Assembly (NCBI RefSeq): GCF_009914755.1
Contig: NC_060934.1
Strand: one strand, 5' to 3'
DNA length: 64,000 nt
Origin: the human T2T-CHM13v2.0 reference genome, Homo sapiens
Shown here: piece by piece, positions 55,918 to 59,706 of the stretch
Numbering within the stretch: position 1 is the first letter of the stretch
Layout: each line of letters begins with the position of its first letter
The notes under the pieces: model-generated
Told to the model about the DNA's origin: nothing
Database searches by the model: none
The model's input: the letters and a program-made list of their open reading frames with translations, nothing else
Position numbers and translations under genes: made by a program

Positions 55918-58900
55918 GGTGCCACACACTTTTTTTTTTAAATTATTTTACGAAATCTAAAAGAGTCATATTTATTATCATCCCATATGTCATTTGTCTC
56001 CTTCAAGTAATATTATATTGTTTTGCATTTAAATTAGAGGTACATGAACTTCATTTTATTCAAAATATTTAGGTTTCTTAAGAGTTTATTTTGGAATTAC
56101 ATTTTGAAAACAGTGGTCACAAAGTAAAACATTTCGATTTTGACATTTCTTAAGCCAAAAGAAGACATAAATTTAAGACCTTATCTAGTTGTTCAGCTCT
56201 CTTTCACCTATCCCAGGATGTTCCATCAAATATTCATTCCCTCTCCCTCTCTTCCTCTTCTTGTCTCCTCTGCTTCTATCGGTGCCTTCCCATAACCTAG
56301 ATATGTGAAGAAATATCTTTAAAATCTTAAAAGCAAACAGAATTTTAAAAAAGCCCTTTTCCACTCTGCTTATCTCTGTAGCATGGTCCTCTCTTTTCCC
56401 CTCACAGCCAAGCTCCTTGAAAGCATGTTCAGCACTCACTGCATTGCGTTTCTTCCTTCCCCATCTGGTACATTGAGGCATATCTGGCTGTGACCTCCCC
56501 AACTCCCCTGGAATGGCCCTTCCTCATCTCATCAGTCATTAGTTCATTTTTGTCTTTCTCCCTAGGCTGTAAACTCCTTTAGATCATATATTGTGTCTTA
56601 ATTCTTTTTGTCTTTTTAGAGGCTGACATGTAGCAAGTGCTCCATAAGTATTAATTAAATTAATATTGCCTTGCTTTAATGCTTCACAACACTCACAGCA
56701 TCCATTTGAACCAGAGACCAAAATAAGTAAAAAATTTTCAGTTTGAACTTTCTGATATGATCTATCAGAATTGCTAACTTTATGGGACCAGGTGCATCCC
56801 CATGCATTGCTCATCTGATGAATTAGTGACTTGCATTGGTAGATCTCTGTTGTTCTTTTGGTGGTGGGGTAGACTCTGGTTTTAGCCTTAACCAAGGTAC
56901 AGATATTTCAACAATTATTGCTTTTCACTTTTTATAAAATGTTAGTTTACAAATTGCTTTCTTTTTGAAACAGAGTCTCACTCTGTCATCCAGACTGTAG
57001 TGCAGTGGGGCAATGTCGGCTGACTGCAGCCTGCGCCCCCCGGGCTCAAGCAATCCTCCTGCCTCAGCCTCCCAAGTAGCTGGGACCACAGGCATGCACC
57101 ATCACACCTGGCTAATTTTTGCATTTTTTCATGGAGATGGGGTTTCACCGTTTTGGCGAGGGTGGTCTTGAAATCCTGGGCTCAAGCAATCTGCCTGTCT
57201 CGGCCTCCCAAAGTTCTTGGATTACAGGCATGAGCCACCAATCCTGGCCTATAACTTGCTTTGATTGCTGGCCTTGAATTTCATTCATGATCCCAATGCT
57301 CTTAATTCTTTTGTCTAAGGGCTTGTTACAAAAATTATTCTATAAAGCCCTTTAAGATACCCTTGAGAGGATTTCAAAATAAAACAACTCAAAATTTCCC
57401 CCAACAAAATAAAAAATTCAACTAGAATCCAGGATTATACAAAGCATTTTGAGGAATTAAAACAATTTCCAGTCCTTTCAGGTGCCTTCCTAGAATAACT
57501 ATCTAGGAATTTCTGCTTCATAATCTTATGAACCAGACATTGGCAGTTGGGTATGATCAGATTGCTGAATGTGTTATCCAGAAGATACAGAATTAGTCAA
57601 TGACTCTCTTGATTTTAACACGTGAGTGTACTTGTTTTTTCTTTCTAACTCCCAGGTGAATGCTGAAAATGTAGCTGAGAAAAGCTAACTGTATGTGACT
57701 ATCACAGACAAAGAGCACACTTACACTAATTTCTGTAAATAAGAAACTGCTATTAAATCTTAAACTAAAGTCTTGGTCTACATTTTTTGGTCAAATATAA
57801 TTACAGATTTGACCTAACTGAGAGCTCCTTAGTTTAATAGAGCCATTATTGCCTATTATTTCAGAAAGAAATAGTGTTTTCACTTTCATGAGACGTACAA
57901 ATGATCCGGCCAGATCTCGGCACAAGCCTTGGCCAACACCTTTACAGATGAAACACTTCTGTTCCTGCTTAAACCAATAAACATTATTTTTATTGACACT
58001 TGTACAACACTGGAACATAAAAAACAGTCTGCTGAAAGTATTTTCCTATTTAGTCCAATTTCAGTGTATTTGTAATAGACAGTGGGACACTCCAGCAAAG
58101 CTGTTTACAATGGTATTTTGAATATCATAATATCATTTTCCCATTGCCTCCTATTAAAAAAAGATAAATAAACTACAGTAAAACATTTTTCATGAAAGAC
58201 TTTATAATGGTGACCTAATCTATACCATGCAGAGTAGATAGTTTTATGTTTCTTGGAATTGTTTCCAACTGTTTGCATTACCTTTTATATATATATATAT
58301 ATATATATATATATATATATATATATATATATATAATATATATGTATTTTTTATTATACTTTAAGTTCTAGGGTACATGTGCACAACATGCAGGTTTGTT
58401 ACATATGTATACATGTACCATGTTGGTGTACTAAACCCATTAACTTGTCCTTTACATTAGGTATATCTCCTAATGCTATCCCTCTCTGCTCCTGCCACCC
58501 CACAACAGGCCCCGGTGTGTGATGTTCCAGAGATATAGACCAATGGAACAGAACAGAGCCCTCAGAAATAATACCACACATCTACAGCCATCTGATCTTT
58601 GACAAACCTGATAAAAGCAAGACATGACGAAAGGATTCCCTATTTAACGAATGGTGCTGGGAAAACTGGCTAGCCATATGTAGAAAGCTGAAACTGGATC
58701 CCTTCCTTACACCTTATACAAAAATTAATTCAAGATGGATTAAAGACTTAAATGTTAGACCGAAAACCATAAAAACCCTAGAAGAAAACCTAGGCAATAC
58801 CATTCAGGACATAGGCATGGGCAAGGACTTCATGTCTAAAACACCAAAAGCAATGGCAACAAAAACCAAAATTGACAAATGGGATCTAATTAAACAAAGA

Positions 58901-59706
58901 GCTTCTGAACAGCAAAAGAAACTGCCATCAGAGTGAACAGGCAACCTACAGAATGGGAGAACATTTTTGCAATCTATTCATCTGACAAAGGGCTAATATC
59001 CAGAATCTACAAAGAACTCAGACAAATTTACAAGAAAAAAACAAACAACCCCATCAACAAGTGGGCGAAGGATATGAACAGACACTTCTCAAAAGAAGAC
59101 ATTTATGCAGCCAACAGACACATGACAAAATGCTCATCATCACTGGCCATCAGAGAAACGCAAATCAAAACTACAATGAGATACCGTCTCACACCAGTTA
59201 GAATGGTGATCATTAAAAAGTCAGGAAACAACAGGTGCTGGAGAGGATGTGGAGAAATAGGAAAACTTTTACACTGTTGGTGGGACTGTAAACTAGTTCA
59301 ATCATTGTGGAAGACAGTGTGGCGATTCCTCAGGGATCTAGAACTAGAAATACCATTTGACCCAGCCATCCCATTACTGGGTATATACCCAAAGGATTAT
59401 AAATCATGCTGCTACAAAAACACATGCACATGTATGTTTATTGTGGCACTATTCACAATAGCAAAGACTTGGAACCAACCCAAATGTCCATCAGTGATAG
59501 ACTGGATTAAGAAAATGTGGCACATATACACCATGGAATACTATGCAGCCATAAAAAAGGATGAGCTCATGTCCTTTGTAGGGGCATGGATGAAGCTGGA
59601 AACCATCATTCTCAGCAAACTATCACAAGGACAAAAAGCCAAACACCGCATGTTCTCACTCATAGGTGGCAATTGAACAATGAGAACACTTGGTGTCACA
59701 CACTTT
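55918..59706 (-). mobile_element. L1PA insertion with 5' inversion and ~2.4 kb 3' transduction
   Basis: Absent from copy A (empty site at about 2252-2270). TSD GGTGC/TCACACACTTT at 55918-55932 and 59692-59706; poly-T at 55930; L1 3' UTR (-) 58345-58527; ORF2 fragment (+) 58528-59691. Confidence 0.9.
58285..58345. repeat. (TA)n microsatellite at the L1 tail / transduction boundary
   Basis: Visible dinucleotide run. Confidence 0.95.

What the first reader, a model, noticed from the sequence alone, without database searches (positions are those of the whole stretch)
55918..59706. L1-mediated 3' transduction of ~2.4 kb of foreign DNA, with the empty site preserved in the paralogue
Seen: copy A reads GAGGTGCCACACACTTTGAAACAAC uninterrupted. 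In copy B a 15-bp TSD brackets poly-T, a minus-strand AATAAA (55971-55976), 2.4 kb of non-L1 sequence (including an Alu and L2-like remnants), (TA)n, an L1 3' UTR and an inverted ORF2 piece. Known: this is the structure of L1 read-through transduction combined with twin priming. Inferred: 55940-58285 was copied from the flank of a source L1 elsewhere, so it tags the donor locus and could carry exonic or regulatory DNA.
Basis: partly seen in the sequence, partly recalled or inferred. Interest (0 to 1): 0.7.

Follow-up and report, generated by a model that had tools for sequence, protein, structure and literature searches.

The report
Parentless L1 transduction from MYO3A intron
A jumping gene (L1) inserted here together with a 2.35-kb copy of intron DNA from a myosin gene (likely MYO3A) half a megabase away; that donor site holds no L1 today, likely because the parent element was lost in our ancestors, which is a known kind of event, and the copy carries no myosin coding exon.

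Summary
The structure is real: a 3.77-kb insertion (55918-59706) in copy B has a 15-bp TSD (1 mismatch), a T10 tail, 2,346 bp of foreign DNA, (TA)25 and a twin-primed L1. The site is empty in copy A and two further paralogues. The foreign DNA has one donor, chr10:26,153,634-26,155,980 (96.1% identical, 0.50 Mb away), wholly inside an intron of a myosin gene (MYO3A by synteny). Instead the donor breakpoint is an uninterrupted, endonuclease-like site. Best reading (0.75): a 'parentless' 3' transduction whose source L1 sat antisense in that intron, likely 15-20 Myr ago, and was lost; this class is in print. Two coincidences stay unexplained: donor breakpoint and target nick share an exact 10-nt run across the cut (crude P about 0.001), and the donor is only 0.5 Mb away (P about 0.0003 if random). 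They keep alive a local-capture reading (two-RNA template switch or DNA-templated copy, about 0.19 together). No exon was moved and no sibling copy was found. Interest low to moderate.

The parts
55918..55932 (+). left copy of the 15-bp target-site duplication
   Evidence: identical to the empty site in copy A at 2252-2266
55930..55939 (-). poly(A) tail remnant (T10 on +; 3 T shared with the TSD, 2 with the donor flank)
55940..58285 (-). 2,346-bp foreign segment, colinear unspliced copy of chr10:26,153,634-26,155,980 (intron of a myosin gene, MYO3A by synteny; antisense to that gene when read on the L1 strand)
   Evidence: (2240 matches, 90 mismatches, 7 small indels)
55971..55976 (-). AATAAA 31 nt from the tail; ATTAAA in the donor; candidate poly(A) signal
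56958..57250 (-). Alu carried inside the segment, also present in the donor
58286..58335 (.). (TA)25 microsatellite at the position of the L1's own A-tail
58341..58528 (-). L1 3' UTR and 3' end, non-inverted part, about 190 bp
58529..59693 (+). inverted L1 piece (3' part of ORF2, stops in all three frames); last 2 nt shared with the TSD; 11 nt of L1 missing at the inversion point
   Evidence: 94.8-96.1% identical to 7 genomic L1 copies
59692..59706 (+). right copy of the TSD (1 mismatch)
2252..2266 (+). empty pre-insertion site in paralogous copy A

Best explanation
This is one L1 insertion with a 15-bp target-site duplication, a 5' inversion and 2.35 kb of myosin-gene (likely MYO3A) intron DNA behind the L1's tail, likely made by read-through from a source L1 that once sat antisense at chr10:26,155,980/1 and is no longer in the human reference (a 'parentless' 3' transduction). 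Shown: TSD, empty paralogues, single donor, colinear unspliced copy, no L1 at the donor, endonuclease-like donor breakpoint, inversion with an 11-nt loss. Inferred: (1) an active L1 inserted at the donor site on the minus strand; (2) its transcript ran past its own AATAAA and five further hexamers in the segment and was polyadenylated at one of the last two; (3) ORF2p nicked the target in copy B, primed on the poly(A) tail and copied 2.35 kb of flank, the old A-tail and about 190 nt of L1; (4) the other target strand primed internally by 2-nt microhomology and copied 1.16 kb of ORF2 (twin priming); (5) the offspring persisted in the human lineage while the source allele was lost by drift or selection, or precisely deleted; (6) the internal A-tail became (TA)n. 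Age likely 15-20 Myr (4.0% K2P between donor and copy; calibration recalled, not computed).
For: TSD brackets tail, foreign DNA and L1 together, so one event. Empty in copy A and in 2 of 2 further paralogues that span the site (L015, L016; L017 does not span it). Donor/copy divergence 90/2330 (3.9%) is below A/B divergence 123/2257 on the left flank (5.5%, Fisher p=0.011) and 384/5673 pooled (6.8%). Order on the minus strand is L1 3' end, tail-derived (TA)n, unique DNA, hexamer, second tail, the two-tail pattern used to call partnered 3' transductions (PMC12350158, passages). The donor breakpoint scores in the top 0.6% of minus-strand positions of the 20 kb around it under a matrix from 21 Alu insertion sites, as expected of an empty L1 site. 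A poly(A) hexamer lies 7 and 31 nt from the donor's cleavage point; 4.9% of positions have one in that range. Missing parents are the rule in several surveys: 17 of 18 (PMC7980453), 24 of 27 (PMC13141329), nearly all validated ape and macaque cases (PMC4862182 section 14).
Against: The source L1 itself is not seen: probes from 7 genomic L1 loci and 2 window L1s hit only one 75-80 bp fragment at 76-78% identity, 18.6 kb away, in chr10:26,146,000-26,175,999. No sibling insertion carries the tag. Two features are not explained: an exact 10-nt identity across the cut between donor breakpoint and target site (model P=0.0012; longest run among unrelated Alu-site pairs was 8) and a donor only 497,952 bp away (P=0.0003 under random placement). 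Both were noticed after the fact, and the control is small. Only 5 tail bases are untemplated, neither hexamer is at a typical 10-30 nt spacing (7 and 31), and 2.35 kb is long beside published germline calls (8-997 bp, median 63, method-capped; PMC9311842).
Confidence: 0.75

Rival explanations
1. Two-RNA chimera, no L1 ever at the donor: ORF2p primed at the target on a polyadenylated antisense RNA from the MYO3A intron, copied 2.35 kb, stopped where the RNA matches the target across the nick for 10 nt, and the cDNA end (TTT) jumped to the poly(A) tail of an L1 RNA; twin priming finished the insertion.
For: Explains in one step the 10-nt identity centred on the cut, the endonuclease-like look of the donor breakpoint, the absent parent, the hexamer and the tail. 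Two-RNA insertions occur: nine in a cell-culture set that held 99 L1 and 235 pseudogene insertions (PMC11702581 section 7 and passages). An 820-bp multi-copy LTR-like repeat 6.1 kb beyond the breakpoint could supply a promoter (function untested).
Against: Needs an antisense intronic polyadenylated RNA for which I have no evidence. Catalogued genomic chimeras have the cellular RNA 5' of the L1, the reverse order (PMC13174262, passages). No clustered editing signature in the Alu: 5 of 21 T-to-C differences lie in it. Proximity is explained only if such RNAs act locally.
Confidence: 0.1
2. Local DNA capture during one L1 event: endonuclease cuts at two sites 0.5 Mb apart that were in contact; reverse transcription began at the donor nick, twin priming came from the target, and second-strand synthesis ran 2.35 kb into donor DNA before joining the T-tailed target end, leaving the donor intact.
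For: Explains the proximity, same orientation, endonuclease-like donor junction, short untemplated tail and absent parent. L1 bridges between distant cuts and templated genomic insertions are described (10.1101/2024.08.27.596794, passages; PMC11702581).
Against: Reported templated insertions are typically under 250 bp and within 15 bp of the site. It treats the poly(A) hexamer at the far end as chance (about 5%), needs several switches, and does not by itself explain the 10-nt identity. No other homology between donor and target flanks (best local score 9 in 200-nt flanks).
Confidence: 0.09
3. The segment was ancestral at this position and was deleted from copy A, or the MYO3A intron copy derives from here.
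For: No outgroup species could be examined.
Against: Three paralogues are empty with one copy of the TSD sequence; the insertion interrupts an older repeat whose copies elsewhere cover the left flank up to the junction; the MYO3A copy has no tail, no flanking duplication and no L1; the insert is less diverged from its donor than A is from B.
Confidence: 0.01

Closest known systems
'Parentless' L1 3' transductions (dog: PMC7980453, PMC13141329; apes and macaque: PMC4862182)
   Same: L1 followed by unique DNA that maps to one locus with no adjacent L1; read as a source allele missing from the reference.
   Different: Those are recent polymorphic insertions whose parent may still segregate; this one is about 4% diverged from its donor, so the parent is likely extinct in humans. 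The tag is 2.35 kb, the donor is 0.5 Mb away and shares 10 nt with the target nick.
Partnered L1 3' transduction with 5' inversion by twin priming (PMC12350158; PMC13009371; PMC11702581)
   Same: Two tails, TSD, endonuclease-type target, inversion with short loss and microhomology.
   Different: No full-length source element upstream of the tag; the 11-nt loss is just above the 1-10 bp reported in PMC11702581.
MAP3K13/L1PA5 chimera with a proposed lost intronic L1 (PMC13174262)
   Same: Old primate L1 joined to gene-derived sequence; the intronic source L1 is missing; the authors weigh the same two readings (lost allele or RNA recombination).
   Different: There spliced exons lie 5' of a full-length L1; here unspliced antisense intron DNA lies 3' of a truncated, inverted L1.
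L1 templated insertions and L1-bridged junctions (10.1101/2024.08.27.596794)
   Same: Non-L1 genomic DNA built into an L1 insertion; endonuclease motifs at two loci.
   Different: Those templates are typically under 250 bp and within 15 bp of the site; here 2.35 kb from 0.5 Mb away, ending near a poly(A) hexamer.

Membership tests
L1 TPRT insertion | target-site duplication and empty pre-insertion site | tested here: met
   15 bp, 1 mismatch; empty in copy A, L015, L016
L1 TPRT insertion | 3' poly(A) tail | tested here: met
   T10 on +, only 5 untemplated
L1 TPRT insertion | endonuclease-type target | tested here: met
   minus-strand TTTC/AAAG, a degenerate form of TT/AAAA; matrix score 2.9 bits
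twin priming | inverted and non-inverted pieces adjacent in L1, short loss or duplication, microhomology with the TSD | tested here: met
   11-nt loss in 6 of 7 reference copies, 2-nt overlap with TSD, 1 nt at the internal junction
partnered 3' transduction | unique DNA between the L1 tail and a second tail, mapping to one other locus | tested here: met
partnered 3' transduction | poly(A) signal near the 3' end of the tag | tested here: inconclusive
   hexamers at 7 and 31 nt in the donor; background 4.9%
partnered 3' transduction with identified source | source L1 directly upstream of the tag at the donor | tested here: not met
   no young L1 in 30 kb of donor region
parentless 3' transduction | donor is an empty, endonuclease-like site without L1 | tested here: met
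   (top 0.6% of positions)
parentless 3' transduction | a filled allele or sibling insertions prove the parent existed | not testable with these tools
   no other primate genome is offered; no sibling found in this genome
exon shuffling by L1 | tag carries an exon | tested here: not met
   segment lies between myosin exons; non-coding or antisense exons were not tested
L1PA4/L1PA5 subfamily | diagnostic positions against subfamily consensus | not testable with these tools
   no repeat library; the name is recalled; only 94.8-96.1% identity to 7 genomic copies was measured

The most novel reading that the evidence does not exclude
No L1 ever sat in the MYO3A intron: the 2.35 kb were captured locally during one insertion, by a homology-guided template switch from a nearby antisense RNA (or nearby DNA) to the L1 poly(A) tail, the stop point being set by a 10-nt match to the target nick. 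Some 'parentless transductions' would then be mimics that point to source elements that never existed.
Probability: 0.17. Interest if true: 0.62.

Novelty: new member of a known kind. Interest (0 to 1): 0.3.

Why it matters
On the likely reading it is a clean fossil of an extinct active L1 allele in a MYO3A intron, datable and checkable in ape genomes, but of a described class and with no exon moved. It matters more as a test case: transduction tags are used as barcodes of source L1s, and here two rare coincidences (near donor, 10-nt identity at the cut) raise a directly testable question, whether some parentless tags are local captures and not read-through products.

Tried and rejected
Source L1 beside the donor: none in 30 kb. 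Sibling insertions: none (2 of 2 candidates, 3 of 3, the third a 35-bp hit, a 17-mer at the tag's start occurs twice genome-wide, 2 of 2); these searches skip common words, so very short or diverged siblings could be missed. One search scored only 40 of 6060 candidates, mostly Alus, so uniqueness rests on the Alu-free searches. Exon capture: rejected for myosin coding exons. Sequential model (segment inserted first, L1 later at its edge): rejected because the right-hand duplicate is target sequence, not segment sequence. Gene conversion or common source with the neighbouring L1 at 60877-61726: 466/477 identity, best non-self hit of 40 scored out of 3627, but 8 other copies are 95.4-97.5% alike among themselves, only 1 of 7 shared minority alleles is absent from all 8, and the 3' UTRs are 88% alike: inconclusive. 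RNA-editing signature: donor-T/copy-C 21 against donor-A/copy-G 7, not clustered in the Alu and not polarised: inconclusive. A larger control set of insertion sites was not obtained, so the 10-nt control rests on 21 of 48 full-length Alus in 163 kb already held, includes paralogous duplicates (one pair with a run of 15 was set aside as the same insertion) and imperfect TSD boundaries. The TSD comparison printed was off by one base; the coordinates given here are read. Papers not held: Szak 2003, Tubio 2014 (28), Pickeral 2000 (32), the T2T repeat paper (52). Protein atlas gave no answer (56); earlier findings were closed (54).

Full report
Observation. A self-comparison of the window shows a duplication, copy A (4-5744) and copy B (53661-64000), at 89.6-93.7% identity, with two insertions present only in B. 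The first is the finding. Copy A reads through at 2250-2274. In B the 15 bp at 2252-2266 occur twice, at 55918-55932 and 59692-59706 (one mismatch), around the whole insert. Read on the minus strand the insert is: inverted ORF2 piece (58529-59693), L1 3' UTR (58528-58341), (TA)25 (58286-58335), 2,346 bp of non-L1 DNA with an Alu (58285-55940), and a tail that appears as T10 (55930-55939). On uninverted genomic L1 copies the two L1 pieces are 11 nt apart (6 of 7 copies; anchor not found in one), the inverted piece shares 2 nt with the TSD and 1 nt with the other piece: the pattern of twin priming. The claimed L2 remnants could not be tested.

Polarity. A genome search with the left flank found three more paralogues on chr10. 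Two span the site (L015 at 90%, L016 at 83%) and both are empty; the third does not reach it. The insert differs from its donor at 90 of 2330 sites (3.9%, K2P 4.0%), while A and B differ at 123 of 2257 on the left flank (p=0.011) and 384 of 5673 overall. The insertion is therefore derived and younger than the duplication. With recalled ape and monkey divergences (about 3% to orangutan, about 6% to macaque; from no call) this points to the base of the apes, about 15-20 Myr. The L1 piece is 94.8-96.1% identical to 7 genomic copies, so it was a contemporary element.

Donor. The foreign segment matches one other place over its whole length, G000:C10:26,153,634-26,155,980, same strand, 497,952 bp from the target. 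One search scored only 40 of 6060 candidates, so I repeated the search with Alu-free parts: 2 of 2 candidates, 3 of 3 with one 35-bp chance hit, 2 of 2, and a 17-mer at the L1-proximal end occurs exactly twice. The copy is colinear with 7 small indels. Flanking reading frames are myosin motor exons (Pfam PF00063, E 1.9e-17 and 5.3e-14; next exon near 26,167,980). The gene name MYO3A is by recall of human 10p12 and by the MYO3A-GAD2-APBB1IP order in a bird genome (PMC6579635, passages), APBB1IP being the neighbour in the task's gene table. The segment starts about 565 bp after one exon and ends about 12 kb before the next: purely intronic, and antisense to the gene on the L1's strand.

The failed prediction. 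There is none. L1 probes found nothing significant in 26,146,000-26,165,999 and only a 75-80 bp, 76-78% fragment 18.6 kb away when 10 kb more were added. The donor continues as unique DNA straight after the last shared base. That breakpoint is itself endonuclease-like: top 0.6% of minus-strand positions under a matrix built from 21 Alu insertion sites. At the other end the donor has AATAAA 7 nt and ATTAAA 31 nt from the cleavage point; the copy has lost the first and reads AATAAA at the second. About 4.9% of positions have a hexamer in that range, and five more hexamers lie inside the donor segment, so this is modest support.

Mechanism. The simplest account is read-through from an L1 that was inserted at that site and is now gone. 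Missing parents are common in print: 17 of 18 dog transductions (PMC7980453, passages), 24 of 27 in a later dog set (PMC13141329, passages), and no clear full-length donor at ape and macaque source loci bar one, against 3 of 6 with a donor in human (PMC4862182, passages and section 14). A lost intronic L1PA5 was proposed for a MAP3K13 chimera (PMC13174262, passages). Transductions accompany 466 of 5311 polymorphic human L1 insertions (PMC12350158, passages). I give this reading 0.75; never-fixed and precisely-deleted sources cannot be told apart.

What it leaves unexplained. Donor breakpoint and target nick are identical for 10 nt across the cut (6 on one side, 4 on the other). Among 210 pairs of the 21 Alu sites the longest run was 8, apart from one pair that is the same insertion in two paralogues; the matrix gives P=0.0012 for 10 or more. 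The control is small and crude. The donor also lies within 0.5 Mb, P=0.0003 under random placement; my searches for a known proximity bias returned three papers and no such statement in the passages read. Both points are post hoc, but read-through predicts neither. Two rivals use them. In a two-RNA chimera, ORF2p copies an antisense intronic RNA, halts where it matches the target across the nick and jumps to an L1 tail; two-RNA insertions were seen nine times in a culture model (PMC11702581, section 7), but genomic chimeras in print have the opposite order and no such RNA is known to me (0.10). In DNA-templated capture between two cut sites in contact, proximity is natural, but reported templates are typically under 250 bp and within 15 bp of the site (10.1101/2024.08.27.596794, passages) (0.09). 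An editing test was inconclusive.

Novelty. The class is known. I found no paper on this event: MYO3A + LINE-1 + '3 transduction' gave 12 papers with two of the terms and none with all three; FAM238 + segmental duplication + 10p12 gave 27 papers, and none of the 10 listed contains FAM238; some searches were general. I read no supplementary tables, and the older genome-wide catalogues of reference transductions were not held; the event may be listed there. PMC9311842 and PMC13009371 were seen as passages only.

Verdict. Real, well-formed, a new member of a known kind, with no exon moved; interest 0.3. The most novel reading not excluded, local homology-guided capture that mimics transduction, has probability about 0.17 and is testable by a genome-wide comparison of parentless and parented tags.

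Noticed in passing
window 60863-61740: A second 5'-inverted L1 insertion, plus strand, only 1.2 kb from the first and also absent from copy A, with a 14-bp TSD (2 mismatches). Its ORF2 part is 466/477 identical to the first L1's inverted piece and is its best non-self hit among 40 scored, but this is only just above the range among other copies.
   Followed up: partly
window 4-5744 and 53661-64000; chr10:26.686, 26.953 and 26.981 Mb (L016, L017, L015): The target flank belongs to a local family of at least five paralogues on chr10p at 82-95% identity, two of them inverted. A/B divergence rises from 5.5% left of the insertion to 7.3-7.8% right of it.
   Followed up: partly
window 5700-16100: Diverged tandem array with a period of about 1.9 kb, copies 71-86% alike, between LINC03028 and FAM238A and overlapping annotated enhancers.
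   Followed up: no
window 25028-26436 and 50066-51493: A separate 1.4-kb direct duplication at 91.5% identity.
   Followed up: no
L010:6050-6875 (chr10:26,162,049-26,162,870): An 820-bp LTR-like repeat with many genomic copies at 85-93% identity (40 of 2064 candidates scored), 6.1 kb beyond the donor breakpoint in the same intron; family not determined.
   Followed up: partly
window 55940-58285 against donor: Strand-asymmetric differences: donor T/copy C 21 times, donor A/copy G 7 times; unpolarised, could reflect transcription-linked mutation at the donor or changes in an RNA intermediate.
   Followed up: partly
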